From: a virus
IMG/VR virus record: IMGVR_UViG_3300025168_000063
Coordinates: 1-64,000 of that record
Reading direction: 5' to 3' (one strand)
DNA: 64,000 nucleotides
The notes beneath the pieces are model-generated. The model saw nothing but the letters and a program-made list of their open reading frames with translations. It did no database searches and was not told the DNA's origin. This document shows positions 11,393-58,600 of this stretch, piece after piece (within the stretch, counting starts at the first letter, position 1; every line of letters begins with the position of its first letter). A program made the translations under genes and the position numbers.

Positions 11393-12064
11393 ATGACAAA
11401 TTATAATATGAGATATACAGCTAACCGTGATAGAGTATCAGCGTTAGAGTATTTAAAGCAACTTATACAAAAAAATCCAAATGCTAGAATATTAGACATA
11501 GGTGGAAATCACAATACGTGGGCAAGTCAATATGCAACCCATTATGTAGATTTATTTGAAGTAGCTGGAGCGAAGACATTTATAGGTAATATGAATATGT
11601 ATCACGTATGGCAGGATGTTTATAAAGATGTTGAAGAGAATGGAAAATTTGACTTTTGTGTATGTACACATACGTTAGAGGATGTTTGTAATCCTCAGAT
11701 GCCATTATACTTTATGCCAATCATTGCGCATGAAGGATATATAGCTACTCCATCTAAGTATGCAGAGTTGACAACTAACATATATGCATTCAAAGGATCA
11801 CTCCACCATAGATGGATATTCAACAACCAAGACGGTCAATGTGTAATATATCCAAAAGTCAGTTACATCGAACGTGAACAAAAGTTTGATAGAATCTGCT
11901 ACCCTACTTGGGATGCAATGCTAGCTGATAAGGTTGAGGAGTTGCAGTTCTTTTGGAAAGAATCCATAGATTATAGATTTATGAACAATGACTATATGGG
12001 CCCATCTGATGCAGCTGTGTTTAGATATTATGATGGATTGTTAAACGATGAAGTTAAGATTTGA
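11393..12064 (+). CDS. Class I SAM-dependent methyltransferase-like protein
   Basis: RILDIGG motif I; KFDFCVCTHTLED. Confidence 0.7.
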   Translation: MTNYNMRYTANRDRVSALEYLKQLIQKNPNARILDIGGNHNTWASQYATHYVDLFEVAGAKTFIGNMNMYHVWQDVYKDVEENGKFDFCVCTHTLEDVCNPQMPLYFMPIIAHEGYIATPSKYAELTTNIYAFKGSLHHRWIFNNQDGQCVIYPKVSYIEREQKFDRICYPTWDAMLADKVEELQFFWKESIDYRFMNNDYMGPSDAAVFRYYDGLLNDEVKI

Positions 12065-12428
12065 TATTTATATGCAGACAATGAATAGTAACTACGATAT
12101 AAACGATCCGGATAACAATGATTTAATAGTACATGAATCAATGGATAACGTGTATAGTATAATAACAAAGCAGGATACATATCATACCATCTCAGAGCGT
12201 AAAGGTAGAGTATTAATGTTATTCAATCCCTTTGATAAACGTCCTGATGTGGATGAGCTTATTGACACGCTTATTGAATACTATGCATTACCAGACATTG
12301 AGATGTATGAGAGATGTGCTGAGCTTGTAAAGCTAAAGCAATCAGATAAGAAGTTTTCTGTTGAAGACATATTTGAATCTGATATAGAGTTTGATCCTGA
12401 CTGGGATATTGAAGATAATGACCGCTAG
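12048..12428 (+). CDS. Hypothetical protein with UVR-like helix
   Basis: EMYERCAELVKLK; acidic tail. Confidence 0.6.
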   Translation: MKLRFDIYMQTMNSNYDINDPDNNDLIVHESMDNVYSIITKQDTYHTISERKGRVLMLFNPFDKRPDVDELIDTLIEYYALPDIEMYERCAELVKLKQSDKKFSVEDIFESDIEFDPDWDIEDNDR

Positions 12429-12656
12429 TACTTTTATTAGCTGCTCTTTTGGACGAGGGTTCGAAACCCTCCACCTCCACTAAACAATTTACATTATGGG
12501 GGTGACTGGCTTTGACAGGGAGATAAGGATAAGAGGAAGGTCAACGCGTAACTGGCGAACAAGTTGAAATGGCGATGGCGGCTTAGGCACCCTGACCCCC
12601 CGGCCTAAAAGGGTATGGTCGTCAAATAACCTGGTTGGGTGGAGGTACTAATAAAA
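12424..12656 (+). ncRNA. ssrA: Circularly permuted (two-piece) tmRNA, tag GEQVEMAMAA*
   Basis: T-arm GAGGG-TTCGAAA-CCCTC and 3' acceptor strand CACCTCC-A (12455-12479) lie before the 5' strand GGGGGTG-ACTGGCTTTGAC (12498); G3.U pair; tag ORF 12554-12586. Outer boundaries approximate. Confidence 0.9.
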
Positions 12657-12661
12657 AAGGA

Positions 12662-13117
12662 ATGATAGACATGGCAGCTAAAAAGTGGACAATAGAGGAT
12701 GTACTCGATCCCGATTCTGACTTCTGGATATTTGAAGAAGAAGAAATTTGGGATTGGTTAGACCGTATACCAAATGAGCGCCAAGACCAAGCATTTAAAA
12801 ATATAGAAGAATGGATCGCAGATGGAGATATCAAACTAGAAGAACCATTTGATACGAAACCGCTCAAGGATCAATTTGAATCCAACCTCAACAACTTGCA
12901 GGACACTAAACGTCTGCAGAGTATGATTCAATCTGATATGATTAATGTTACTATGGTAAATAATATGGTTGCACTATCAGCTAAGAATCTACCAAAGCTC
13001 AAAGAGATGAAGGATCTAATGGAGAGCCACGGAAACAAATTTGTCGAGTACAGATTTAGATTAAATAAAAATGAAGAAAAGGTACATACGTACATATTTA
13101 TTATTGAAGGCAACTAA
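12662..13117 (+). CDS. Hypothetical protein
   Basis: ORF track; ATG at 12662 or 12671 preferred over TTG 12635. Confidence 0.7.
   Translation: MIDMAAKKWTIEDVLDPDSDFWIFEEEEIWDWLDRIPNERQDQAFKNIEEWIADGDIKLEEPFDTKPLKDQFESNLNNLQDTKRLQSMIQSDMINVTMVNNMVALSAKNLPKLKEMKDLMESHGNKFVEYRFRLNKNEEKVHTYIFIIEGN
13095..13101 (+). promoter_or_regulatory. Putative late promoter TATTTAT
   Basis: Same motif precedes several structural operons. Confidence 0.55.
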
Positions 13118-13164: not shown

Positions 13165-13596
13165 ATGACAACATTCTTTCAAGAAAGGTTCTATCCAACG
13201 GACCTATTATTCAGAAATTTTTTCGACGGAGAAGCTTCATTTAGAGGCTTACAAGATAACAAACCAAGCTATCCAGTAGATATATATCTACAAGAGGATA
13301 ATTTATGTTTTGATATTGCATGCGTCGGGTTGGAAAAAAGTGATATAGATGTCACAGTAGAAGGCAGTACATTATTGATTGCCTATACAAAACCAAGTGT
13401 AGAATCAAACCCATCAGATGTTAAAGCACCGGACTATATCCATAAAGGTATAGCTCGAAGAAGCTTTGATATGGGATGGAAAGTAAGTCCGAAGTTCGAT
13501 CTTACAAATATAAACGCAACAATGGCTAACGGATTATTGAAAGTGGTAGTACCAGTTTCAGAGGAAAGTAAGCCAAAATTAGTTACAATTAAGTAA
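13165..13596 (+). CDS. hsp20: Small heat-shock protein (Hsp20/alpha-crystallin)
   Basis: YPVDI, YIHKGIARRSF, ATMANGLLKVVVP. Confidence 0.93.
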   Translation: MTTFFQERFYPTDLLFRNFFDGEASFRGLQDNKPSYPVDIYLQEDNLCFDIACVGLEKSDIDVTVEGSTLLIAYTKPSVESNPSDVKAPDYIHKGIARRSFDMGWKVSPKFDLTNINATMANGLLKVVVPVSEESKPKLVTIK

Positions 13597-13892: not shown

Positions 13893-15023
13893 ATGAAAAA
13901 AAGACTTTTTCCATTTACAATAGGACTAGCTGCATTGGCCGTCTCTGGCTCTGCTGCATTCTATTCTGTATTTGGTTTAAGTAAATTGTTCGCAGGAGCT
14001 AGCCTACAAGTAATTATAATGGCTGGTTCATTAGAATTTGCTAAACTGGTTACTGCATCCCTACTATATCAGTACTGGGACTCTATCAATAAATTTTTAA
14101 GAACATACCTATCAATAGCTGTATTTATTTTAATGGTAATTACCTCCGGCGGTATATACGGATTCTTATCTGGTGCATATCAAGAGACAGCAACCAAATC
14201 AGAATTTCTAGATAAGTCATTAGCTGTATTGGAAATCAAACAAACCAGATTTGAAGAAAGTAAGTCTGATGCTAAGATAGAAAAGACACAGTTAACTAAA
14301 TCAATATCAGATTTAAGAATTGCACTTTCTAATCCAGCTCAGGTACAATATATAGATAAAGAATCAGGACAGCTAATTACAACAACATCTAGTTCTTCCA
14401 GAAGAGCATTGCAATCTGAATTAAATAAAACGATAGAAGATAGAAATAACCTTAATCTAAAGTTAGAGGTAATACAAGATTCTATTATGTCGTTAGATAC
14501 TCGATTGTTAGATTTAGCTATTTCAAATGAAGATGAGAGAGAGCTGGGCCCATTAAAATACCTAGCAGAAACAACGGGTAAGGATATGGGACAAGTTGTT
14601 AATTGGTTTTTACTATTGATAGTATTTGTTTTTGATCCATTAGCAATTGCAATGGTGGTCGCAGCTAATTTTGCTTTTGCACAAATCAAACCTAAAGAAG
14701 AAATAAAAATGTCAGTACCTGATGGAATGGAATTTAATAAACCATATCCCATACCACTACCGCCTTCACCACCACTAGAAGAATTTGATAACATTCCAGA
14801 GGAGACAAAGAATAAAGAAGATCAGTTAATGTTAGAAGCAGAAAAGCGAATGAACATAATAGGACAAAATGGAAATGATGGACTCCATTATGAGGAACAA
14901 GAAAATAATTTATATGGTGATAAGGCAACAGATAATGCTAGACGACAAGCTGGATGGTATCAATTTCCCAACGGACATTGGAGAGATTCAGAAGGAGACG
15001 AGCATCCGCCATTAGGTTTATAG
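13893..15023 (+). CDS. Multi-TM coiled-coil membrane protein
   Basis: Three N-terminal TMs, a coiled coil, then ELGPLKY...LIVFVFDPLAI TM. Confidence 0.8.
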   Translation: MKKRLFPFTIGLAALAVSGSAAFYSVFGLSKLFAGASLQVIIMAGSLEFAKLVTASLLYQYWDSINKFLRTYLSIAVFILMVITSGGIYGFLSGAYQETATKSEFLDKSLAVLEIKQTRFEESKSDAKIEKTQLTKSISDLRIALSNPAQVQYIDKESGQLITTTSSSSRRALQSELNKTIEDRNNLNLKLEVIQDSIMSLDTRLLDLAISNEDERELGPLKYLAETTGKDMGQVVNWFLLLIVFVFDPLAIAMVVAANFAFAQIKPKEEIKMSVPDGMEFNKPYPIPLPPSPPLEEFDNIPEETKNKEDQLMLEAEKRMNIIGQNGNDGLHYEEQENNLYGDKATDNARRQAGWYQFPNGHWRDSEGDEHPPLGL

Positions 15024-16360: not shown

Positions 16361-16966
16361 ATGTCAATATATGAAGACAAGGTGGCCCCAATTAAACCGG
16401 TAGAAGATAATCAACCAAACGCTAAAGATATATTCAATGAGATAACATATCAGTTTGATATAACCGATAGTGTTGTATATTTAGTTGGAGAGATAGACGG
16501 ATTTACGTTATTAGATATGATGACACGTATTCGAACAATCCTAAAAAATAGAGCAGATGAAGATGCGCAACCAATTAATATGATTATAAATTCGGAAGGG
16601 GGATGTGTATATGAAATGTTAGCAATAGTTGATTATATGAATTCACTACCAGTACCTGTAAACACAATCTGTAGAGGTAAAGCCTTTTCAGCAGCTGCAT
16701 TAATATTAGCTAGTGGGACTGGTACAAGATACGCTAGCAAGCACTCATCGATAATGTTCCATCAATCATCAGCATGGTTACAAGGAAAACAGTCAGATAT
16801 AAAAGCTAGCATTCATCATGTATCTGAAATAGATAAAACGTCTAATGTATTATTGAGTGATAAGACTACACTATCTGCAGAAGAATGGGAGCAAGCTCAA
16901 CGGACTGACTATTGGTTATCATCTCAACAAGCACTCGATATAAAAGTTATTGACCAAATAATATAA
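16361..16966 (+). CDS. clpP: ClpP protease subunit
   Basis: INSEGG, catalytic Ser in AFSAA, His in MFHQ, Asp in RTDYW. Confidence 0.9.
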   Translation: MSIYEDKVAPIKPVEDNQPNAKDIFNEITYQFDITDSVVYLVGEIDGFTLLDMMTRIRTILKNRADEDAQPINMIINSEGGCVYEMLAIVDYMNSLPVPVNTICRGKAFSAAALILASGTGTRYASKHSSIMFHQSSAWLQGKQSDIKASIHHVSEIDKTSNVLLSDKTTLSAEEWEQAQRTDYWLSSQQALDIKVIDQII

Positions 16967-21138: not shown

Positions 21139-22812
21139 ATGGCACTATCCTATAGAGAAGGCGGACTTCCCCAATTCAGACCACCACCGTGTATGGCCAC
21201 TCCACCTATCCCACCCGTAATGAATCCAATGGTTAAGTTAGAACAACTAACAATCAAGCTTGCGATCAAGAAGGCTCAGATATTAGCTGGTCTTGAACAA
21301 AAGAAGCAAGAGGTCATTGCGAAAGCAAAATTAGAAATACAAAATGCAATTAAGAATGCATTGGGAATTCTTAAGAATCCACTCGAAGAACCAATCAAGA
21401 TCAAAAAAGAACAACTGAAGCGTGCAAAAGCAAAGTTGGATAAAATTATAGCTAAAAAAGAAGAGCTGGAAAGAAAGATTCAAAAATTAGTCGATCTGTA
21501 TGAGAAGTATAAAAATCTAGACGAAGTTCTATATGCAGAAGCAATGAAACTTATACAAGAGCAAATCGCAAAATATAAAATTAAGATAGAAGAAGAGCTA
21601 GCAGAGCTGAAGGCAAAAGCAAAAGAAAGAATAGATGCTGAGAAGAAACGATTAATGGCCAAGCTAGAGATTGAAGAAAAGAAAAGAAAGATTGATGAGT
21701 ATAAGAAGAAGATAGATAATGTAAAGAAAGAATATAAAAAGATTCAGGAAACAGTTCAAGAGATTAAAGAGATAGCAGAAAAGATACAGTATATAATAGA
21801 GCACGCAGACGAAGAAGCTATGAAATTTGTAATAGAAAAGTCAAAGCCAATCTTGGAGGAAAAGAAAAAAAAGTTGGAAGCAAAGCTTGAACCTCATAAG
21901 AAACGTCTTGATGAAAAGATGAAAAAGATAAAAGCTAAGATAGCTGAAATAACAGCTGGAATACCAAATATTCCAGGTGCACTTAGATATCAAATGTTTA
22001 GCATGGGAGTCACTCTGTATTGGACAGGAGCAATAATAAATCCGGGTCCAGGAGCTCCTAATGGAATTATAGTATTAAATCCAGGTTCTCCAATTATGAC
22101 ATTCAATCCAACATTTGATCTTAAAACTCAAGGAACCGATCCTGCAGAACCTATTAGACAATTAATTCCAATGTTGAAAGGACATCTAGCAACGGTAAGT
22201 GGATTGTATCTATTGCCAACTGGAACACCACCATTTACACCTCTGCCTTGGGTGGGTTACGGATCTACCATTGAGTGGGAATCGACATTTGTACAGCCAG
22301 TAGCTATGGGATTAAAAAATGGAGTAGATAGTTTAGGAAATTTATTAGCTGACAACTATGATAGAGCTATAAAGACAGGATTTCCAAATGCTCCTGCGAT
22401 ACCAATTCCTTTCACATCAGGAGTAGCTCAAAAAATAAAATCTATGACTATGATAGCTGATCTTGATGGAATAAAGGATATGTTAATGGCAATGGCGTAT
22501 GAAATTCCGATAGTACCAATAAAGCGTGAGATGGATAAACTTATTAAGAAAAAGAAGGAGCTTGAGGAGCGGATCGTCAAGCCTATACTAATAGAAAAGG
22601 AAAAAATAGAAGCAGAAATAGCTAAATTAAAAAAATACCAAATAAAGGTAGAAGAATATATGGAGTGCATGAAGGAATATGCGTTATGGGCCCAAGAACA
22701 GCAAGCTGCTGTAGCATACTACTCCGACCCATCAAATGTATTAGCGGGAGCTATAGATGGAGTAGGTAATCTTGCCAATGAAGCAGGAGACTTAGGCAGT
22801 ATCCCAAGCTAG
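21139..22812 (+). CDS. Coiled-coil protein in the baseplate cluster
   Basis: About 250-aa K/E coiled coil, Pro/Gly-rich globular part, second coiled coil. Confidence 0.75.
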   Translation: MALSYREGGLPQFRPPPCMATPPIPPVMNPMVKLEQLTIKLAIKKAQILAGLEQKKQEVIAKAKLEIQNAIKNALGILKNPLEEPIKIKKEQLKRAKAKLDKIIAKKEELERKIQKLVDLYEKYKNLDEVLYAEAMKLIQEQIAKYKIKIEEELAELKAKAKERIDAEKKRLMAKLEIEEKKRKIDEYKKKIDNVKKEYKKIQETVQEIKEIAEKIQYIIEHADEEAMKFVIEKSKPILEEKKKKLEAKLEPHKKRLDEKMKKIKAKIAEITAGIPNIPGALRYQMFSMGVTLYWTGAIINPGPGAPNGIIVLNPGSPIMTFNPTFDLKTQGTDPAEPIRQLIPMLKGHLATVSGLYLLPTGTPPFTPLPWVGYGSTIEWESTFVQPVAMGLKNGVDSLGNLLADNYDRAIKTGFPNAPAIPIPFTSGVAQKIKSMTMIADLDGIKDMLMAMAYEIPIVPIKREMDKLIKKKKELEERIVKPILIEKEKIEAEIAKLKKYQIKVEEYMECMKEYALWAQEQQAAVAYYSDPSNVLAGAIDGVGNLANEAGDLGSIPS

Positions 22813-41600: not shown

Positions 41601-44600
41601 ATGAAAAAAATAGAAATAGGATTTGATAAAATAACGAAAGTAGCTCATATAGCTGACATTCATATTAGAAACGTAAAACGCCATAAAGAATATAAACGCG
41701 TATTTGCAAAATTATATAAAGATCTGAAATCTACTCTTCCTAAAGAAGGTGGGCTAATATATCTAGCAGGAGACATCGTTCACGCAAAAACGGAAATGAG
41801 TCCAGAACTTATTTCAATGACTGGTGAACTATTTACTAAATTGAGTAAAATAGCTCCAACAATTCTTATAGCGGGTAATCATGATTGCAATCTGAATAAC
41901 AAACATAGATTGGATGCACTAACACCAATTGTAGATTCTCTCCAATTAGAAAACTTCCACTACCTATATGGTACTGACATATACGAAATAGCAGATTGTC
42001 GATTTGTAGTAGAATCAGTATTTGATGCGCCAGAGAATTACATCAAAGCTGACCAGGTTCCAAATGGTAAAACAAAGATAGCATTATATCACGGACCGGT
42101 AACGAGTGCACGTACTGATGTAGGATATGAGCTACAAGGAGATCTAGATGTAGTCGACTTCAAGGGATTTGACTATGTAATGCTTGGAGATATTCACAAA
42201 CACCAGTATCTAGATAAGAAAAAGAGAATAGCATACGCCAGCTCATTAGTATGTCAAAACTTTGGAGAGCATCCAACCAATCACGGTTATATCTTGTGGG
42301 ACTTAGAAACTAAAAAAAGCGAATTCAGACAGATAAAAAATGATAATGCGTATTATACGTTAATGATCAATGGAGGAGTAGCTGAGAATTATGAAGGTAT
42401 GCCAAAGCAACCAAGATTAAGAATAAAAGCGGCTAACTCATCACAAGCTGATATTAAAAAAGTACTGGCCACATTAAAGAAAGATCGTAAAATTTCAGAC
42501 GTCACTGTAATACGAACAGATTCATTACGAGATCAGAAATCGAACGATAGAGACTCTCGACATAACACAATTGGCAATGTTAGAGATATAAATTATCAAA
42601 ACTCTTTAATTCAAGAATATTTAGATAGAAACTTTACTGTAGATGATGACACTGTAAAACATATACGTAAGATAAACAAAGATCTAAATTCTCAACTATC
42701 TCAATTAGAAGTTACGCGAGATATAGATTGGCAAATTAAAAAATTCGAATTCTCAAACATGTTCAGTTATGGTAAAGACAATGCGATAGACTTTAGTGAC
42801 TTCAAAGGAACTTATGGTATATTTGCAGCCAATGCATCAGGCAAGTCAGCTTTGTTAGATTCGTTATGCTATTGTTTGTTTGATAGATGCAGTCGTGCAT
42901 CCGATGCAAAGGGAGTAATGAATAATACAAAAAACGATTTCTACTGTAAAGCAGAATTAGAAATCTCAGGACAGACGTTTGTAATTGAACGTAAAGCTAG
43001 AAGAACTACTAAAGGATATTTGAAAGGTAGAATAAGCGTAACTACAAATTTTTGGACGTATGATGAAAATGATCAAGAAATTTCATTGAACGGAGAACAA
43101 CGTAGAGATACAAATAAAGCTATCCAAAGCTATTTAGGTAAATATGAAGATTTTATCCTAACCTCTATATCAGTGCAAAACAATAACACTGGATTTATCG
43201 ACTTATCTCAATCTCAACGTAAAGATCTATTAGCGCAATTTTTAGATGTTACCGTATTTGAAGAGTTGTACGATTTAGCTATACAAGATATTAAAGAAGT
43301 TCAGATTCTACTTAAAGATTTTAAAAAGCAAGACTATGATGAACAGCTATCACAAGCTGTAAAAAGTTATGATGAGAATACAAAGCTATTCAAAGAATTG
43401 ACTCGAACGAAAAATGCACTACTAAAAAAACAATCGAGTTTGGAAAGTAAAATTAGAAAAGAAACTCAAAAGTATAAGCAGATTCCAAACATTACCAATG
43501 TTGATGTACTAGAACAGAAACGTGACTCGCTCAAATTAGAAATATCTATAATTGAAAGTAGATTAAAAAATGATGAGAAAGAAGCAGTCGCAAATAATAA
43601 ACTGATAGAAGATACTTCAGATATTCTGAGTAATATTAATGACGATACTGTACGTGGAGATTATGAGTTGTGGCAAAAAACGAAAGCTGACAATTCTGAC
43701 AAATCACATGAGTTGGAAAAAATGAAAATAGATGTAAGGCATAAACTTGAAAAGTTAAGACATCTAGAGAAACATGAGTACGATCCAAATTGCACATTTT
43801 GTATGGATAATCCATTTGTAATAGATGCACGCAATACTCAGCAAGAATTGGAAAGCGATAAAGTAGCAGTTCGTCAAATACTAACTGAAATATCTGATCA
43901 GACAAATCTTATAGAAACTCTTAGTAAAGCAGAACAGCAATATGTATTCTTACATTCACAGCAAACTATACTAAAGACAGCTAACCAAGAAAAAACTACT
44001 GGTAGAGTTCTTTATTATGAAGCTAAGGAAAATCTAAGAACTAAATCATCTTTACTACAAGAGGTAAGCTCAAAGATATCTGAATATCATACAGCTAAAA
44101 AAGATATTATATACAACGAAAAAGTTGCAGAGCGGATAACGGTAGCAGAAGATGATAAGAAACATATATCCAATATGATATCAATACATTCAGACGATCT
44201 AATGGATATCCACAGTGCTGTACGTGTTGCAGAATCTACAAAGCAAACTATCACTGAAAAAATGCAACAAGCTGATGACATGGAAGAAAAATATAAGGCA
44301 TATGAATACTATCTAGATGCTATACAAAGAGATGGTGTACCATATGAATTAATCTCAAAAGTTATACCGTTAATAGAAGATGAGGTAAATAATATTTTAG
44401 GTCAAATAGTTGACTTTAATATATTATTCCACGTTGATGGTAAAAATATCAATACGCACATCGTGTATGATGATAAATCGTGGCCATTAGAATTAACATC
44501 TGGTATGGAAAAGTTTATATCATCTTTAGCAATCCGATCCGCTCTTGTAAGTGTATCAAATCTACCAAAACCAAACTTCTTAGCAATAGATGAAGGATTG

Positions 44601-44768
44601 GGTAATTTAGATTCGGAAAATCTCAACTCCATGTTTATGTTATTTGATTATCTTAAATCTCAGTTCAATTTTCTACTAATCATATCACATTTAGAAGCGG
44701 TTAGAGATGTAGTAGACAATCTTATCGATATCCAGAAGGTAAACAACTACAGTAAAATCCACTACTAG
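41601..44768 (+). CDS. Fused Mre11/SbcD nuclease and Rad50/SbcC ATPase (gp47-gp46)
   Basis: DIH, GD, GNHD, GDIH; Walker A NASGKS; zinc hook CTFC; signature SGMEK; Walker B LAIDE; H-loop ISH. Confidence 0.92.
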   Translation: MKKIEIGFDKITKVAHIADIHIRNVKRHKEYKRVFAKLYKDLKSTLPKEGGLIYLAGDIVHAKTEMSPELISMTGELFTKLSKIAPTILIAGNHDCNLNNKHRLDALTPIVDSLQLENFHYLYGTDIYEIADCRFVVESVFDAPENYIKADQVPNGKTKIALYHGPVTSARTDVGYELQGDLDVVDFKGFDYVMLGDIHKHQYLDKKKRIAYASSLVCQNFGEHPTNHGYILWDLETKKSEFRQIKNDNAYYTLMINGGVAENYEGMPKQPRLRIKAANSSQADIKKVLATLKKDRKISDVTVIRTDSLRDQKSNDRDSRHNTIGNVRDINYQNSLIQEYLDRNFTVDDDTVKHIRKINKDLNSQLSQLEVTRDIDWQIKKFEFSNMFSYGKDNAIDFSDFKGTYGIFAANASGKSALLDSLCYCLFDRCSRASDAKGVMNNTKNDFYCKAELEISGQTFVIERKARRTTKGYLKGRISVTTNFWTYDENDQEISLNGEQRRDTNKAIQSYLGKYEDFILTSISVQNNNTGFIDLSQSQRKDLLAQFLDVTVFEELYDLAIQDIKEVQILLKDFKKQDYDEQLSQAVKSYDENTKLFKELTRTKNALLKKQSSLESKIRKETQKYKQIPNITNVDVLEQKRDSLKLEISIIESRLKNDEKEAVANNKLIEDTSDILSNINDDTVRGDYELWQKTKADNSDKSHELEKMKIDVRHKLEKLRHLEKHEYDPNCTFCMDNPFVIDARNTQQELESDKVAVRQILTEISDQTNLIETLSKAEQQYVFLHSQQTILKTANQEKTTGRVLYYEAKENLRTKSSLLQEVSSKISEYHTAKKDIIYNEKVAERITVAEDDKKHISNMISIHSDDLMDIHSAVRVAESTKQTITEKMQQADDMEEKYKAYEYYLDAIQRDGVPYELISKVIPLIEDEVNNILGQIVDFNILFHVDGKNINTHIVYDDKSWPLELTSGMEKFISSLAIRSALVSVSNLPKPNFLAIDEGLGNLDSENLNSMFMLFDYLKSQFNFLLIISHLEAVRDVVDNLIDIQKVNNYSKIHY

Positions 44769-52699: not shown

Positions 52700-55600
52700 A
52701 TGGCAGATATTTTTATATATGATGGACATATAAGTTCGAGTGATGGAATCAAACTACAAGTTTCCGAGTCCAACGCACTTTTCATATCCCATTCAGAAGG
52801 ACTAGGATTTGATTTAGGTGGCTATGGCCCAAAGGTTGGAATTGGTACAATAACGCCTAGTGTTCCTTTAGACGTTGAAGGAGGAATTCTTGGAGCCCAC
52901 ATTGCTAGATTTACCAGAGTACAAGGATTAGGAGGTACCAACGCTCAAGTAGCAATAAATGCAAACTCAAGCGATCCTCAAATACAGTTTGCCCGCGGAA
53001 CGGGTGCTTATGCTATAGGCTTGAATGATGGTGATAATTCTTTTCAAATAATTGATGGAACTACAATATCTGGTGGTACTGCAAGATTTACAATAAACTC
53101 ATCGGGTAATGTTGGTATAGGAACAACCAATCCTCAATCATTGCTAACCGTGAGTGGATCAGATGGAGGAAATTTCACAACTTTCTTAAGATTTGGAAAA
53201 GATAATTATACTGCTGGTTCAGGACCTGCCATGTTCTTTAAGACAAGTCCCAACACAACTTTGGATCGATATGGTGTAAAACTAGGAGCGATAAGAAAAG
53301 GTAGTGGAACTGCTGAATTTGTAATAGAACAAGAATTGGATAATGGTTCTGGTGGTGCAGGCGGATTAAGTGAAACGCTCAGAATTACTAGTTTTGGAAA
53401 TGTTGGTATAGGAACATCTACAGCAACTGCAAAGTTAGAAGTAATTGGAGACATAAGTGGATCTGGAGCTGCATCTTTTGAAACAAATCTAAAAGTAGAT
53501 GGAAAAGTAGCAATAGCAGCTCCCAACAACACCTCAACTGCAGATTTAATTATTGGTGATGGAACCACCAATGTAAATGTAACTCTGTTTGGAAATGAAG
53601 ATTCCGCAACGCAAGCATCCTTATGGTTTGGAGACGTTGCTTCAGCAGCATCGCCTCACTACGGTGGATCGGGTTTTGTATATGATGGAAACGATAATCA
53701 TCTTACAATCCGAAAAGGTGGTTCTACAAATAATTTATTTACAATAGACGCAGATAATGGAAACGTTGGTATAGGAAAAGTATCAGGTGATCCTACTGCT
53801 AAATTAGAAGTAGTTGGAGATATGATAGTAGGAGGTATTGAAACAGGAAATATAATAAGTTCTCCTCAATACTTCAGTGGATTTGCAGGTTCAGGATTTA
53901 GAATACAATCAGGTTCAACTGGTGTGAAAGCGGAATTTGATAATCTATCAGTTCGTGGATCATTTCAAGTATATGAATTAGTTGCAAATCAAGTAAGAGC
54001 AACAAACGGATCTTTATGGATATCTAATGCAGGAAAAATAATATCATCATCTCAATTAGATGGATTTGGAGGAGCATCTTGGCCGGTATCTTTTTCAATG
54101 TTTTTTGAAACTGGAAGTGATACATTAGATCATGGATTTGTGAGAGGAGACGTGATCCGATCTCAAAAATTTGACGGTTCAAACGTTTTTCAATCAAACA
54201 TGATAGTTTGTTCTAGAAGTGATAGTGGATCGATAATAGCAGCCTTGGAAGATCAATCAACACCACCATCCGCAAGCATGGATTTTGTGAGAATTGGTCA
54301 TACATTCGATGAAGATAGAGATGCAGCAATATACTTGACAGCTGAAGATACAAATGCACCATATATAGATGTTATAGACGGAGTAGATAGTCATACTGCA
54401 TTTGCTCAATCAGATAAAATAAAAGTTAGATTAGGAAATCTAGCAGGAATAACAGATGTTAATGTAGGAGGAGCTTTAAGTGGATATGGATTGTATTCAG
54501 AAAATGTTTATTTAACTGGAACGATAAAAGCGGTAGCAGGAGAGATTGGAGGTTTTGGACTTAACGCAACTTCTATCTCAAGTTCAAATGATAATTTAAT
54601 TTTAAGATCCACAGGACAAATAACAGCATCCGATTTCTTATTTGATGGATCGGGAACAATAGACGGAGATGTAACAATTGGCAGCAACGTTACTATAGCA
54701 GGGCAACTGTCAGTAGGAGCACTTCCAAATCTTCCATCGGATGAAAGTTTGGTAGGATATTGGAATTTTGACCAAGGAACAGGAAGCCTTATCAGAGATC
54801 AAGTCGGTAGTCTTGATTCAAATGGAAACCGATATGATATCCCAACTGTCGATCCTGATGGAACTCCTGATAGTTTAGGTGCATTTACATCTGAGTCAAT
54901 AAGTGGGATTGCATGGAAACGCGACTCCGCTGGTAGTGCTCAATACGCTATCAATGTTACATCATCTTTCTCATCATCATTTGGAAATGCATGCTCCGGA
55001 TCTATATCCTTTTGGTTAAATACTGACTTATCTACTAATGGTGATGACCAGAGTAAGATATTTGGTGAAAACGGTGAAAACGCAGGATTTAACAAAGAAG
55101 ATTTCTTCTTCATTGATCAACAACCAGGAGGCCAAATCAGAATGTTAGCTTATTCTGGTAGTGGTGGTACTGGAGGTTTTGGAACCGGAAATGAATACGT
55201 AAGTGCACAGGGCGCTGGAACTTCACTTACTATTCTGCAGGATCTTGGTACTAATGCAGGTTCTGGAGGAGGAAGAGGAATCTCATCTAGTTTAGCTGCA
55301 GCTAATAGTGGAAGTAAAGGTTGGGCACATTGGGTAATTAATTGGGGATCTGGTTCTAACTTTGTTGGGAACTCTGACCATGCATTTAGAATTTATATAA
55401 ATGGGGAGAAAGTGTCTCATAGGATTATGACTGGTTCAGATGCACGAATAAACTTCCGTCCATACAACCAAAGGCTGGCATGGATAGGCCAAAAAAATGA
55501 TGACGCAACCATAGACGAAATCCGGATATATAATAGTGTTCTAACACCCAATGAAGTTAGAGCGTTATACCTATCTCCAGCTGGAATGAATACGGGAACA

Positions 55601-58600
55601 ACTGTAACCGGTGATCAAATACAAACTGGCCAGATTAGATCTAACAATTGGAATAATGATACTGATGGATCAATGATTGATCTTACAAACGGTAGAATGC
55701 ATTTAGGTGGATTGGAAGCAAACGCAAAATTACACTTTGATGGAACAAATTTATCAGTAGCAGGAACAGTATCAGCATCCGCTGGTAATATAGGTGGTTG
55801 GAAAATTGAATCAGATAAATTTGTAGATGGTTCAGATACAATTCGTTTAGAACCAAATGGAACTTACGTGATATCATCGTCTGAATTCCAAGTGGATCAA
55901 GCAGGATCAATAACAGCAAGTTCTGCAAACTTCTCGGGTAATGTAACATCATCACAAGCATTGATTGGTGGGTGGACAGTTGATTCAGGATCCATATCAT
56001 CTAACAATGCAAAACTAGATGCGGCAGGAAAATTATCACTGAGCTCTTCTAAATTTACTGGCACTGGAATACAACTGGAAAACAACTCAGGAGCTCCAAG
56101 AGCATATATTGGTGATGGAAATTTAACTGGTAGTTTTATACAATACGATGAAACAAACGGAGTAAGATTAGGACCAGCAGTTACTTTAGCATTTGGTAGT
56201 ACAATGCTGCCAGGCGAAAATATATTGAATGATTTTTCCAATCTATCAATAACAGATCCATGGGTAGCATCAGCAACACCAAATTATTATCCAATTGGTG
56301 AAGCAACAGATAATGAAGTATCAACATCAGTCGGACCACATGGACTCAATGAAAAAGTTTGGGTAGCATCACCAGATTCAGATACAGATGGTGGTGGATG
56401 GATGTCAGATTGGTTTGAAGTAGATCACTCACAAACATATCAATTTTCTGTGTATGTAAAATTCCCAGCTGAATCTAGGATGACTGGTTCATGGTACATG
56501 GGAGCACGTTCTGGAGATGAGAATATATTTATAGGTGCATCTGGTTCACAAAACCCAGCTACAAATCCTGGCCAAAATTCAGCGTATCACTGGCCAAAAT
56601 ATTATTCAGTTCCAACTTTTGGCCCACACGGTCACCACTACGACCATGCCCATTACACATCTACAGGTCAAGCTTTAGCAGCAGGAGCTGCTTTAGGAGC
56701 GATGCAAGATTATCAAGCTGATAATAGTGGCATAACTAACTGGAATCCATACTTCATGCATCTTACTGGAGATGGAACAAACTCCAAAGGACACTTCACA
56801 CAATCCATTGCAGAAGGAGGTTTAGGAGGACAACAAGATCGTTGGTATTTATGTGTAGGATATATACATGGTTCTTCATCTTTATATAATAATTCTGTAG
56901 GTGATATAGGTGGTATGTATGATACTGTAACTGGAAGAAAGGTTAGAGATGGAAATGACTTCATCTGGGGTTCAGGATCCCAATGGCTTTCCGTACGAAG
57001 TTTCCACAATCATGATGCATACGGTGCAGATGACGATACACCATACACACTTTGGGCAAAACCAGCAGTTAAAAAAGTCACACAAGCAACAACAGACATA
57101 AGTTCATTTATTGATATAGGTTCAGCAATTGCAACCGGTCAATATTCTGGATCAAGTACATTCATAACAAGCACATCAATCTTCTCACCAAACATAGCTG
57201 GTACAGATGGATATATATCCAATAAACTTACAGTAGGTACTGCAGGTTCGGGTGTGACATTGGATGGTACAAATAAAAAATTATTCCTTGGAACGGGAGA
57301 TTGGAAAGGTAGTAATACTCCGTTCATAGCTAGAGATTCTGGATCCGATTTCTTAACAAACGGATCATTGACAAATGGAACAACTGGTTGGACAATAGGT
57401 GGTAGTCATTTAACTACTACAAATGCCCCCGAAGTAACAAATTTAATTACAAATGGATATGGTTATCAAGCAATTACTAATTTAGTAGTTGGACTTAGAT
57501 ACGATCTGAATTGGATCATTCCATCCTCCACAGGAACTTGGTCATTCTACGTATCAGACGATACAACATATAATACTGGAGTAAATGGAGTCACAACTGC
57601 TGATACCAGCAATACTGGTTTTAACGCAGGACAGAAATCATTCACAGCCCATCAAACAACTGCATATATTTTTGCATTTAATATAGGAGGTGCGGGTACG
57701 GTGGGAACTTGGCCACAGCTGTCTGTAACCCAAGAAGGTGTATTCAGTCTAGGTGATAAGTTTGCTTGGGATGGATCAACATTACAAATAACTGGATCTT
57801 TATCTTTAACAGCAGGAGATGCATCAGCAAGTATATCTCAACTGAACGTCGACTCAGCAAGCTTTTCAACCTTAATAGCAGATCATTCATCATCAGCTGC
57901 ATCATCAATAACTCAAAACGCAGATAGTATAACAGCAGCAGTTTCAGTGAACGATGGTCAAGCATCAAGTATATCACAACTTCAAATATCAACTGGAGCA
58001 ATAGAATTAGAAGTTAATTCACTTAATGAAGCATCTGGAGCATTATCTGGATCAGTTGTAGAATTAAACTTAACTACTGCATCAATCAATCTATCAGTTG
58101 CATCTATTCAAGGACAAGTAACTCAATCACAATTCAACAACTTGGATTGGTCGCAAGGATATTCAGGATGGAATTGGCATGGTTCTACTGGTAATTACCA
58201 AGGCCTCAATTCAGTTGGAGAAAATCTAGATGGGTGGACAACTGGATCAATGTCACACCTTAACGGTATAGCTTATACATCTGGTTCTCTTGCAGGAGCA
58301 AAAATGTTTGAAGTTGTGTCTGGATCAAATTTATCTGGTTCTAGATTTGGTAGAGCATTAGAAGCTAGGTCTTCAGAAAACGGTAATCAGACATGGGTAT
58401 ATGGCTCAGAAGCAGTACCAATAGATACTGACAGAGTTTATCAAGGACGTGTTCGAGTGAGAATGGCTCATGTTGGAGATAACGGTGAAACTTACTCAGG
58501 ATTCTACGCAGGATTTGCATGTTTGGATCAGTTTGGTAATCAGATATCAGAATCACCAGGCACACACAGATACTTTACCGTAGGAGGAAAAAATATATTA

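What the first reader, a model, noticed from the sequence alone, without database searches (positions are those of the whole stretch)
12424..12656. Phage-encoded circularly permuted (two-piece), minimal tmRNA with a non-canonical tag
Seen: the acceptor piece comes first (GGAC, T-arm 12455-12471, CACCTCC-A 12472-12479, then CTA, so CCA must be added). An 18-nt AT-rich spacer follows, then the coding piece GGGGGTG-ACTGGCTTTGAC from 12498. The 7-bp acceptor stem has the G3.U alanine determinant, and AGGGAG pairs with CTCTTT. The resume context TAACT-GGC opens GEQVEMAMAA-TAG (12554-12586), only 56 nt from the 5' end, leaving little room for pseudoknot 1. TTTTATTAG (12432-12440) can pair with CTAATAAAA (12648-12656). 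Known: permuted tmRNAs are described from alphaproteobacteria and some cyanobacteria and betaproteobacteria; Bacteroidota tags typically begin GE and end YALAA in one-piece genes. Inference: an independent permutation in a phage, with a MAMAA degron that may redirect rescued proteins or evade host anti-phage RNases.
Basis: partly seen in the sequence, partly recalled or inferred. Interest (0 to 1): 0.92.

Follow-up and report, generated by a model that had tools for sequence, protein, structure and literature searches.

The report
Compact two-piece tmRNA of Bacteroidota phages
This uncultured marine phage carries a genuine back-to-front ("two-piece") gene for tmRNA, the RNA that frees stalled ribosomes; it belongs to a large, little-described family in phages of Bacteroidota that has swapped the usual first pseudoknot for a small hairpin, but phage two-piece tmRNAs as such are already known.

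Summary
ARAGORN calls a permuted tmRNA with tag GEQVEMAMAA, and Rfam tmRNA_permuted scores 62.9 bits against a cut-off of 47.

The gene is not a one-off. Homologous genes are already annotated in GenBank phages of Bacteroidota: Chryseobacterium MA9V-3, Maribacter Panino and crAss-like cr114_1.

Covariation supports:
- the acceptor stem, T arm and a three-part P2 helix;
- a pseudoknot after the tag;
- a family-specific 5-bp hairpin that holds the resume codon where pseudoknot 1 normally sits.

The tRNA-like ends, the glycine resume codon, the ...AMAA tag end and the missing CCA match one-piece Bacteroidia tmRNAs. The alpha, beta and cyano models all fail their cut-offs. An independent permutation is therefore likely, not proven.

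The tag looks like a host-type degron, so "redirecting" is unsupported. Processing, charging and tagging are untested. Phage two-piece tmRNAs are published (Buchholz 2022), and this scan has reported this same family on other DNA several times. Verdict: new variant of a known kind, moderate interest.

The parts
12420..12479 (+). Acceptor piece: the 3' strands of helix P2, the T arm, the 3' strand of the acceptor stem and discriminator A12479. The 5' end is approximate.
   Evidence: RF04321 alignment. Conservation starts at about 12419 in 22-86 relatives.
12420..12423 (+). P2c, 5' side (GACC); pairs with 12539-12542 (GGTC)
   Evidence: RNAalifold and pair counts: CG 13, UA 5, AU 3 at one pair.
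12431..12438 (+). P2b, 5' side; pairs with 12528-12535
   Evidence: 8 bp, with compensatory changes at two pairs (CG/GC/GU; AU/UA/GU).
12444..12451 (+). P2a, 5' side (CTCTTTTG, T12449 bulged); pairs with 12516-12522 (CAGGGAG)
   Evidence: 4 of 7 pairs show changes on both sides. The same CTTGTTTGGAC/GACAGCAAG helix occurs in Bacteroidia tmRNAs.
12455..12471 (+). T arm (5 bp, 7-nt loop TTCGAAA)
   Evidence: GC/AU/CG and AU/CG compensation.
12472..12478 (+). Acceptor stem 3' strand (CACCTCC); pairs with 12498-12504
   Evidence: 7 bp with G3.U in all 86 relatives. Three compensatory variants occur at pair 5.
12480..12497 (+). Intervening spacer, predicted to be excised. Only C12480 of the CCA end is encoded.
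   Evidence: Spacer is 16-23 nt in 71 of 86 relatives. Four relatives hold a tRNA gene here.
12498..12645 (+). Coding piece: acceptor 5' strand, D-loop analogue, P2 5' strands, resume hairpin, tag ORF and pseudoknot. The 3' end is uncertain, between about 12641 and 12660.
   Evidence: Conservation fades after about 12645.
12549..12566 (+). Resume hairpin: stem 12549-12553 (TAACT) pairs with 12562-12566 (AGTTG). The 8-nt loop GGCGAACA starts with the resume codon.
   Evidence: 83-86 of 86 sequences pair at each position, with compensatory changes at pairs 1, 4 and 5. The hairpin is perfect in 82 of 86 family members, against 2 of 27 Bacteroidia and 2 of 45 alpha-like permuted tmRNAs.
12554..12586 (+). 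Tag reading frame GGC...GCT TAG, encoding GEQVEMAMAA. The peptide added would be A-GEQVEMAMAA.
   Evidence: ARAGORN. Ala codons 7, 9 and 10 vary only at the third base across 77 relatives.
12600..12632 (+). H-type pseudoknot after the tag. S1: 12601-12605 with 12617-12621. S2: 12611-12614 with 12629-12632.
   Evidence: S1 covaries. S2 has 9 or more distinct complementary versions; 54 of 73 are perfect, against 0 in a reversed control.
12048..12428 (+). Upstream ORF (126 aa, no family). Its stop codon lies inside the first conserved bases of the tmRNA gene.
   Evidence: Homologues are present in 10 family loci.
13165..13596 (+). Hsp20 gene (context)
   Evidence: PF00011, 42 bits. A homologue is present in 36 of 118 family loci.
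16361..16966 (+). ClpP protease gene (context)
   Evidence: PF00574, 114 bits. A homologue is present in 18 of 118 family loci.

Best explanation
Window 12420 to about 12645 (+) is a working gene for a two-piece tmRNA. It belongs to a widespread family carried by phages of Bacteroidota.

Inferred pathway:
1. One precursor is transcribed, in this phage possibly together with the upstream ORF.
2. The host's tRNA-processing enzymes cut it. RNase P cuts 5' of G12498, and a 3' processing nuclease cuts after A12479.
3. The host CCA-adding enzyme completes the 3' end.
4. A roughly 63-nt acceptor RNA and a roughly 150-nt coding RNA stay together through 26 intermolecular base pairs (the acceptor stem plus P2a, P2b and P2c).
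5. Host alanyl-tRNA synthetase charges the RNA through the G3.U pair. Host SmpB delivers it to stalled ribosomes.
6. Translation resumes at GGC 12554 and appends A-GEQVEMAMAA, a degron of the host's own type ending in AMAA. The ribosome is released and the truncated protein goes to Clp-type proteases.

Pseudoknot 1 is absent. A 5-bp hairpin that presents the resume codon in its loop stands in its place.

The likely benefit to the phage is keeping ribosomes free and recycling amino acids while host mRNA is being destroyed, perhaps with help from the phage's own ClpP and Hsp20 nearby.

The family most likely arose by its own circular permutation of a Bacteroidota-type one-piece tmRNA.

Shown here: gene identity, secondary structure, selection on the tag, family distribution and sequence affinities. 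Inferred: processing, charging, tagging, benefit to the phage and the direction of evolution.
For: - Identity: ARAGORN permuted tmRNA; RF04321 at 62.9 bits against a cut-off of 47.
- Structure: 41 pairs are 97.4% paired across 22 relatives, against 89.5% in shuffles (0 of 500 shuffles as high) and 41-54% when slid. 13 pairs show double changes. RNAalifold found the same helices unaided. The pseudoknot's S2 stem has 9 or more complementary variants.
- Alanine identity: G3.U and the A discriminator are present in 86 of 86 sequences. The acceptor stem has three compensatory variants.
- Tag under protein-level selection: in 77 sequences, Ala codons 7, 9 and 10 and Met 8 are invariant as residues, while third bases and stop codons vary.
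- No pseudoknot 1: the distance from the 5' end to the resume codon is 54-61 nt in the family, against 93-130 nt in Bacteroidia.
- Resume hairpin: perfect in 82 of 86 family members, against 2 of 27 Bacteroidia and 2 of 45 alpha-like permuted tmRNAs.
- Family: at least 118 IMG/VR contigs. Homologues occur in Chryseobacterium phage MA9V-3, Maribacter phage Panino and crAss-like cr114_1/cr272_1.
- tRNA genes lie in the spacer in four relatives and in cr114_1, which fits excision by tRNA-processing enzymes.
- Bacteroidota affinity: the 5' motif scan gave almost only Bacteroidota genomes among the titles listed, with one-piece tmRNAs and tags of the GE..YALAA type. In an unbiased set of 27 Bacteroidia, 21 resume with Gly, 7 end in AMAA, 25 lack an encoded CCA, and the P2a sequence is the same. 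HMM scores favour Bacteroidia in 64 of 86 acceptor pieces and 74 of 86 coding 5' ends. The beta model scores 46.5 against a cut-off of 84, and alpha and cyano score lower.
- Permuted form is phage-specific in the sample: 0 of 151 Bacteroidia genomes hold a permuted tmRNA above the cut-off.
- RNA libraries: contigs from four marine metatranscriptomes cover 12411-12630. One contig, 99% identical, spans 12411-12556.
Against: - No direct evidence exists for processing at 12479/12498, CCA addition, alanylation, SmpB binding or tagging.
- The metatranscriptome data are assembled contigs. They could come from DNA. The near-identical contig bridges the spacer, so it shows at most the precursor.
- The single-sequence minimum-energy fold reproduces only the acceptor stem and T arm, not P2.
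- No SmpB gene is found in the 75.5-kb record, which is only about 45% of the genome.
- The host is not established. The nearest isolates by baseplate wedge protein are Microcystis phage Mel-JY01 (47%) and Flavobacterium phage immuto (42%), and both lack a tmRNA. The strict Bacteroidota promoter consensus is not enriched in the window (4 matches against 2.5 expected).
- The HMM preference for Bacteroidia is moderate: 31.6 against 27.7 bits, and 13.7 against 2.2 bits. I had no authenticated beta- or cyano-type sequences for comparison.
- Part of the family sample was first collected with a pattern based on the tag. This inflates the apparent uniformity of the tag.
Confidence: 0.85

Rival explanations
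1. The gene is a real two-piece tmRNA, but it was not permuted independently. It descends from an existing permuted lineage (beta-, alpha- or cyano-type, perhaps through another marine phage). It later converged on Bacteroidota features because it must work with the host's SmpB, AlaRS, ribosome and proteases.
For: - The best clade-specific Rfam model is beta_tmRNA (46.5 bits, E 4e-13).
- The D-loop region CUGG.UUUGACAGGG resembles the beta consensus.
- The T arm and acceptor region are nearly identical in many unrelated phage tmRNAs.
- Pelagibacter phage Mosig carries an alpha-type tmRNA with a GE... tag (GEDNFALAA), so a Gly resume codon is not exclusive to Bacteroidota.
- The HMM preference for Bacteroidia is only moderate.
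Against: - All three clade models fall below their cut-offs.
- The 5' motif with TTTGACA in place of TTCGAC is almost confined to Bacteroidota in a scan of all species genomes. Among 46 permuted tmRNAs (the alpha-like set plus five GenBank phages), the only one with this motif is a family homologue, Maribacter phage Panino.
- The P2a helix and its flank match Bacteroidia nearly base for base.
- CCA is not encoded, as in the hosts.
- Known members with isolated hosts all infect Bacteroidota.
Confidence: 0.2
2. The RNA is a decoy, not a tagging tmRNA. Its tRNA-like domain soaks up host SmpB or blocks host trans-translation, as proposed for the TLD-only gene of mycobacteriophage DS6A. The short reading frame would then be irrelevant.
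For: - Pseudoknot 1, normally the most conserved pseudoknot, is missing.
- The sequence just upstream of the resume codon is locked in a hairpin stem.
- A TLD-only phage form that inhibits tmRNA is on record (PMC11915505, PMC4131195).
Against: - The frame is open in 85 of 86 relatives and always ends in a stop codon. It keeps A-M-A-A, with purely synonymous variation at three Ala codons.
- Long-tag variants of 36-37 residues keep the same end.
- Replacement of PK1 by a hairpin without loss of function in E. coli has been published; I state this from my own knowledge (Tanner et al. 2006) and did not check it here.
Confidence: 0.05
3. One reading: the unusual MAMAA tag sends rescued proteins to a different, phage-chosen fate, or helps the phage escape host anti-phage RNases.
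For: - The phage encodes its own ClpP and Hsp20 within 4 kb of the tmRNA. These genes recur near the tmRNA in relatives: Hsp20 in 36 and ClpP in 18 of 118 loci.
- The middle of the tag (QVEM) differs from the host NNY pattern.
Against: - The C-terminal AMAA that proteases would read is a common host ending (7 of 27 Bacteroidia).
- Nothing in the sequence bears on RNase evasion.
- ClpP alone does not recognise tags.
Confidence: 0.1

Closest known systems
Permuted tmRNAs annotated in isolated or assembled Bacteroidota phages: Chryseobacterium phage MA9V-3 (PV245944), Maribacter phage Panino (PP540027), crAss-like cr114_1 (NC_055897) and cr272_1 (NC_055903)
   Same: - Gene order is acceptor piece first, then coding piece.
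- RF04321 hits of 40-65 bits.
- Gly resume codon.
- About 60 nt from the 5' end to the resume codon, so no pseudoknot 1.
- A hairpin presents the resume codon (read).
- cr114_1 has the same ACGGC/GTCGT pseudoknot after the tag.

   Different: - Their tags are longer and unrelated in the middle (for example GNVIDINKYVAKLEVAA and GNFYVTDYTRIAA).
- Sequence identity outside the T arm is too low for blastn to detect.
- These records are annotations only. I found no paper that describes them as a lineage.
Phage-encoded two-piece tmRNAs of marine and aquatic phages (OM43 phage Melnitz, pelagimyophages HTVC008M and Mosig, cyanophages, Caulobacter phiCbK-like phages; Buchholz et al. 2022, PMC9004378)
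   Same: A phage-borne permuted ssrA gene in large marine phages. The presumed role is ribosome rescue or tagging during infection.
   Different: - Those genes are copies of their hosts' already permuted alpha- or cyano-type tmRNAs. Mosig passes alpha_tmRNA at 67.6 bits against a cut-off of 50 and encodes CCA.
- The distance from the 5' end to the resume codon is about 80 nt.
- Here the presumed hosts have one-piece tmRNAs (0 of 151 permuted).
One-piece tmRNA of Bacteroidia (RF00023)
   Same: - 5' end of the form GGGGNTGACTGGNTTTGACA.
- P2a helix CTTGTTTGGAC/GACAGCAAG.
- Resume context TAACT|GGC GAA.
- Tags starting with G and ending in A(L/M)AA.
- CCA not encoded.

   Different: - One continuous RNA of 360-410 nt with pseudoknot 1 and further pseudoknots.
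- The resume codon lies 93-130 nt from the 5' end.
- No resume hairpin (2 of 27).
Two-piece tmRNAs of Alphaproteobacteria, a betaproteobacterial group and marine cyanobacteria (RF01849, RF01850, RF01851; Keiler 2000; Sharkady and Williams 2004)
   Same: The circularly permuted gene, the tRNA-like domain assembled from two RNAs, and the reduced number of pseudoknots.
   Different: - The window fails all three clade models (beta 46.5 against 84; alpha and cyano lower).
- Those lineages keep pseudoknot 1 (from my own knowledge).
- The RF04321 consensus built from them reads UUCGAC in the D-loop analogue and ends in an encoded CCA.
- Alpha-like phage copies resume with Ala.

Membership tests
tmRNA (functional class) | tRNA-like domain: 7-bp acceptor stem with G3.U70, a discriminator base, a T arm and no anticodon arm | tested here: met
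   Positions 12472-12478 pair with 12498-12504, with the G12500.T12476 wobble. A12479 is the discriminator and the T arm is 12455-12471. These are invariant or compensated in 86 relatives.
tmRNA (functional class) | Internal reading frame without a start codon, ending in a stop codon and encoding a degron with a hydrophobic-Ala-Ala end | tested here: met
   The frame is 12554-12586 and encodes GEQVEMAMAA*. Variation at the Ala codons is synonymous only across 77 relatives.
tmRNA (functional class) | Pseudoknot 1 between helix 2 and the resume codon | tested here: not met
   Only 11 nt lie between P2c (12542) and the resume codon (12554). The distance from the 5' end is 54-61 nt in the family, against 93-130 nt in Bacteroidia. 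A 5-bp hairpin stands in its place.
tmRNA (functional class) | Charged by AlaRS, bound by SmpB, and tags proteins on stalled ribosomes | not testable with these tools
   There are no biochemical data. No SmpB gene was found in the 75.5-kb record.
Permuted (two-piece) tmRNA, Rfam RF04321 | Score at or above the gathering cut-off, with gene order acceptor piece, spacer, coding piece | tested here: met
   62.9 bits against a cut-off of 47, full-length model match.
Permuted (two-piece) tmRNA, Rfam RF04321 | The precursor is cut into two RNAs that stay base-paired | tested here: inconclusive
   RNA-library contigs cover the gene, but one contig bridges the spacer. Contigs cannot show RNA ends. 26 intermolecular pairs are predicted.
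beta_tmRNA RF01850 | Gathering score of 84 bits | tested here: not met
   46.5 bits.
alpha_tmRNA RF01849 and cyano_tmRNA RF01851 | Gathering scores of 50 and 70 bits | tested here: not met
   No match was listed. Overlapping clan matches scoring lower than beta's 46.5 bits were suppressed, so both fall below their cut-offs. As a positive control, phage Mosig passes the alpha model at 67.6 bits.
Standard one-piece tmRNA RF00023 | Colinear 5' and 3' halves in one gene; gathering score of 47 bits | tested here: not met
   24.1 bits, covering the acceptor piece only.

The most novel reading that the evidence does not exclude
The family is a fourth, phage-born circular permutation of bacterial tmRNA. 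It arose from a one-piece Bacteroidota tmRNA inside phages whose hosts keep the one-piece form. In it, pseudoknot 1, normally the most conserved pseudoknot, has been replaced by a short hairpin that displays the resume codon. If so, it is a natural minimal tmRNA that still tags proteins, and it works alongside phage Hsp20 and ClpP as a phage-run protein quality-control set.
Probability: 0.55. Interest if true: 0.65.

Novelty: new variant of a known kind. Interest (0 to 1): 0.48.

Why it matters
tmRNA specialists count three bacterial lineages with permuted genes and treat pseudoknot 1 as the most conserved pseudoknot. A large natural family that is permuted on a Bacteroidota background, lacks pseudoknot 1 and places the resume codon in a hairpin loop would be a ready-made minimal tmRNA. 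It could be used to ask how the reading frame is set and what pseudoknot 1 is for.

It also matters for annotation and phage biology:
- Standard clade-specific models miss these genes or would type them as beta.
- The genes are abundant in marine viromes and occur in gut crAss-like phages.
- They may serve as a host marker for uncultured Bacteroidota phages.

The practical weight is limited. Phage two-piece tmRNAs are already published, members of this family are already in GenBank annotations, and nothing here is shown at the RNA or protein level.

Tried and rejected
1. blastn of the gene and megablast of 12 kb of flanks against 50,697 phage records found nothing at E 1e-5. At E 10, only T-arm-sized hits appeared, and those led to the GenBank relatives.
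2. Two IMG/VR scans were wasted on a pattern with one N too many. The 117 hits were chance matches with no tmRNA.
3. The tag-based pattern gave many chance hits and biases the view of tag variation. The acceptor-piece pattern was used to correct this.
4. Host by protein similarity:
   - The baseplate wedge protein gives Microcystis and Flavobacterium phages at 42-47% identity.
   - DNA ligase gives only distant Bacillus phages.
   - ORF 21139-22812 gives nothing.
   So there is no firm host from proteins.
5. The strict Bacteroidota promoter pattern TTTG-N17-21-TANNTTTG is not enriched. Sigma-70-like and terminator scans around the gene are at chance level.
6. The single-sequence cofold of the two pieces does not recover P2. 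I rely on covariation instead.
7. The conserved neighbour gene 13893-15023 has no Pfam, PHROG or Atlas family. The idea that it might be a CCA-adding enzyme or an SmpB substitute has no support.
8. Metatranscriptome contigs: the flanks 12300-12410 and 12640-12800 have no cover.
9. blastn-short grouping of the pieces was uninformative, because the T arm is shared by many phage tmRNAs.
Full report

Yes. ARAGORN reports one gene in the 64-kb window: a permuted tmRNA at 12387-12677 (+) with tag GEQVEMAMAA*. Rfam's tmRNA_permuted model (RF04321) matches 12420-12586 end to end at 62.9 bits. The cut-off is 47 and the E-value is 8.7e-10 for the whole window against 4227 families.

- T arm 12455-12471
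- CACCTCC 12472-12478
- discriminator A12479, followed by CTA
- an 18-nt spacer
- GGGGGTG at 12498-12504, with the third pair G.U
- resume codon GGC at 12554
- stop codon TAG at 12584-12586

The record is an IMG/VR virus contig of 75.5 kb, estimated 45% complete. Its genes are typical of a large tailed phage. They include a DNA ligase, a primase, a fused SbcD-SbcC, UvdE, a baseplate wedge protein, Hsp20 and ClpP.

**2. It is one member of a large family.**

- The T-arm/acceptor 23-mer and a tag-end pattern pulled related permuted genes from IMG/VR.
This pattern is independent of the tag.
- These contigs give 86 unique sequences.
- The 24 public runs that hold words of the stretch are labelled marine, seawater, viral or plain metagenomes. 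Most hold only a small share of the words.

With a relaxed blastn I also found annotated tmRNA genes of the same build in GenBank:
- Chryseobacterium phage MA9V-3
- Maribacter phage Panino
- crAss-like phages cr114_1 and cr272_1

Reading these sequences shows the same layout:
- acceptor piece first
- a Gly resume codon about 60 nt from the 5' end
- a hairpin around the resume codon
- in cr114_1, the same ACGGC/GTCGT pseudoknot after the tag

Table S1 of Buchholz et al. 2022 already lists crAss-like phages and Cellulophaga phage phi4:1 as "Permuted" by ARAGORN.

**3. Anatomy, by comparison.**

RNAalifold on 22 relatives found the helices without guidance. My explicit model of 41 pairs is 97.4% paired. 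Column shuffles give 89.5% (0 of 500 as high), and sliding the partners gives 41-54%. Thirteen pairs carry changes on both sides.

In window coordinates the helices are:

| Helix | 5' side | 3' side |
|---|---|---|
| Acceptor stem | 12472-12478 | 12498-12504 |
| T arm | 12455-12459 | 12467-12471 |
| P2a | 12444-12451 | 12516-12522 |
| P2b | 12431-12438 | 12528-12535 |
| P2c | 12420-12423 | 12539-12542 |
| Resume hairpin | 12549-12553 | 12562-12566 |
| Pseudoknot S1 | 12601-12605 | 12617-12621 |
| Pseudoknot S2 | 12611-12614 | 12629-12632 |

S2 occurs in at least nine complementary versions. 54 of 73 are perfect, against none in a reversed control.

Across the 86 sequences:
- The acceptor stem has three compensated forms: GGGGGTG, GGGGATG and GGGGCTG.
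- G3.U and the A discriminator are always kept.
- CCA is encoded in only 10.
- The spacer is 16-23 nt in 71 sequences, 68-70 nt in 11 and 89-91 nt in 4.
- The four long spacers each hold a tRNA gene: Glu once and Ala three times. cr114_1 holds tRNA-His in its spacer.

This fits release of the two pieces by the enzymes that mature tRNAs, which is the accepted route for permuted tmRNAs (PMC11915505).

It also overlaps P2b.

**4. No pseudoknot 1, and a hairpin instead.**

P2c ends at 12542 and the resume codon starts at 12554. The distance from the 5' end to the resume codon compares as follows:

| Group | Distance (nt) |
|---|---|
| This family, all 86 | 54-61 |
| 27 Bacteroidia tmRNAs drawn without regard to sequence | 93-130, median 96 |
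| Alpha-like permuted phage tmRNAs | median 81 |

In place of the pseudoknot, TAACT (12549-12553) pairs with AGTTG (12562-12566) around the loop GGCGAACA. Each of the five pairs is kept in 83-86 of 86 sequences, with compensatory changes at pairs 1, 4 and 5. Examples are TAACA/TGTTG, TAACC/GGTTA and TAATC/GATTA.

With one permissive search applied to all groups, a perfect 5-bp hairpin is found in:
- 82 of 86 family members
- 2 of 27 Bacteroidia
- 6 of 98 further Bacteroidota
- 2 of 45 alpha-like permuted genes

I infer that the hairpin takes over the spacing or presentation role of pseudoknot 1. That an artificial hairpin can replace PK1 in E. coli is from my own knowledge (Tanner et al. 2006) and was not checked here.

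**5. The tag.**

Among 77 relatives with 10-residue tags:
- Gly1, Val4, Ala7, Met8, Ala9 and Ala10 are invariant as residues.
- The three Ala codons vary freely at the third base: GCA 36 / GCG 40; GCT 55 / GCG 21; GCC 38 / GCT 37.
- All three stop codons are used.

Nine relatives have longer frames. Eight are complete tags of 36-37 residues, seven ending in MAA and one in AMAV; the ninth runs off the extracted stretch.

This is selection on a peptide, so the RNA is unlikely to be a mere SmpB decoy. Part of the sample came from a tag-based pattern, which exaggerates uniformity. However, the variants found only with the acceptor-based pattern (GEQVELAMAA, GKQVEYAMAA and the long tags) keep the same end.

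Of 27 unbiased Bacteroidia tmRNAs, 21 resume with Gly and 7 end in AMAA.

**6. Where did it come from?**

- The three clade-specific permuted models all fail: beta scores 46.5 bits against a cut-off of 84, and alpha and cyano score lower. Phage Mosig passes the alpha model as a control.
Among the titles listed, all but two are Bacteroidota. These loci carry one-piece tmRNAs with tags of the type GE/GN...YALAA.
- The unbiased Bacteroidia set shares several features with the family: TTTGACA in 17 of 27, against TTCGAC in 26 of the 46 permuted comparison genes; the P2a helix CTTGTTTGGAC/GACAGCAAG; the TAAC(T)|GGC resume context; and the missing CCA.
- Profile HMMs were built from Bacteroidia and from alpha-like permuted genes. 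The latter set was chosen with the family's own acceptor sequence, which biases against my reading. The HMMs favour Bacteroidia for 64 of 86 acceptor pieces and 74 of 86 coding 5' ends, by modest margins.
- None of 151 sampled Bacteroidia genomes has a permuted tmRNA above the cut-off. Published counts give 24,380 standard and 48 permuted among 29,415 Bacteroidota genomes.

Together these results make an independent permutation on a Bacteroidota background the likelier history (about 0.7). Without beta- and cyano-type sequences in a proper tree, it is not proven.

The host of this particular phage is inferred only from the RNA and from the hosts of family members. Protein similarity to isolates is weak, and the nearest isolates have no tmRNA.

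**7. Expression.**

Contigs from four marine metatranscriptomes, from four studies, lie on 12411-12630. One contig is 99% identical and spans 12411-12556, including the spacer. Very deep short contigs on 12448-12480 belong to flavobacterial one-piece tmRNAs, as their loose ends show. These are assembled contigs, and DNA carry-over cannot be excluded. They are a weak hint of transcription and say nothing about processing.

**8. How it most likely works.**

The inferred pathway is:
1. Transcription of one precursor.
2. RNase P cleavage before G12498.
3. 3' trimming after A12479 and CCA addition by host enzymes.
4. Two RNAs held together by 26 base pairs.
5. Alanylation through the G3.U pair.
6. 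Delivery by host SmpB. None is encoded in the part of the genome available.
7. Resumption at GGC, adding A-GEQVEMAMAA.
8. Degradation of the tagged protein by Clp-type proteases.

Hsp20 (13165-13596) and ClpP (16361-16966) lie close by. They recur near the tmRNA in relatives: Hsp20 in 36 and ClpP in 18 of 118 loci. This fits a protein-quality-control theme but does not show a functional link.

**9. Novelty.**

- Phage two-piece tmRNAs are published. PMC9004378 reports 53 of 133 unique phage tmRNAs as two-piece by ARAGORN.
- RF04321 itself comes from a 2025 database paper that covers 79 phage tmRNAs.
- Members of this very family are annotated in GenBank.
- In the papers I could search, I found no description of a Bacteroidota-phage permuted lineage, of its lack of pseudoknot 1, or of the resume hairpin.
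- Earlier reports of this scan reached the same reading on other genomes several times. My analysis was done independently and agrees with them. The scan has therefore found this family before.

I file it as a new variant of a known kind, of moderate interest.

Noticed in passing
L517, L549, L563, L031 (spacer between the acceptor and coding pieces); L263:742-814: Some relatives carry a complete tRNA gene inside the tmRNA spacer: tRNA-Glu(UUC) once and tRNA-Ala(UGC) three times. crAss-like cr114_1 carries tRNA-His there. A single precursor would then yield three RNAs.
   Followed up: partly
L037, L054, L545, L546, L566, L089, L101, L064 and others (spacers of 68-70 nt): Eleven relatives have a long spacer made of two copies of a roughly 22-nt motif (consensus CTATATTCAWTTAGATATAAT). 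The second copy ends directly against the 5' GGGG of the coding piece. Its function is unknown; it could be a promoter-like or protein-binding repeat.
   Followed up: no
L510, L511, L513, L527, L530, L552, L555 and others: Some family members have tags of 36-37 residues (for example GKQVNT...FAMAA) instead of 10. They keep the same first residues, the resume hairpin and the AMAA end.
   Followed up: partly
L523: In one relative the acceptor piece and spacer are followed directly by the resume region. The 5' acceptor strand and the P2 strands of the coding piece are missing. This is either a deletion (pseudogene) or a misassembly.
   Followed up: no
window 13165-13596, 13893-15023, 16361-16966, 674-1819: Hsp20, a conserved 376-aa protein with no known family, ClpP and a MoxR-type AAA ATPase lie near the tmRNA. 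Homologues of the 376-aa protein occur in 56 of 118 family loci, Hsp20 in 36 and ClpP in 18.
   Followed up: partly
window 12048-12428: The upstream 126-aa ORF ends with the TAG inside the conserved CCGCTAG at the start of the tmRNA gene. The protein gene and the RNA gene therefore overlap by about 10 nt. The relatives L026, L052 and L087 share this arrangement.
   Followed up: partly
upstream of the tmRNA in L035, L037, L051, L054, L077, L088, L105, L114, L118 and others; window 12063-12071: Many relatives have the motif GATATTTATAWWTGA directly before the acceptor piece, which may be a phage promoter. In the window, the exact 9-mer GATATTTAT lies 355 nt upstream, at the start of the overlapping ORF.
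   Followed up: no
L263:218-385 (crAss-like cr114_1): A strong RAGATH-9 RNA match (RF03146, 153.7 bits) lies about 250 nt upstream of that phage's permuted tmRNA.
   Followed up: no
L003, L005, L006, L008-L012, L014-L017: Other IMG/VR phages carry one-piece tmRNAs with exactly the same 23-nt T-arm/acceptor sequence but unrelated tags (ANATVGHFVTEGATVAA, AKEEVVFA, VDSKVAVA). They often lie next to tRNA clusters.
   Followed up: no
window 41601-44768 and 52700-62338: A single 1055-aa ORF joins SbcD-like and SbcC-like nuclease parts. A 3212-aa ORF follows the structural genes.
   Followed up: no
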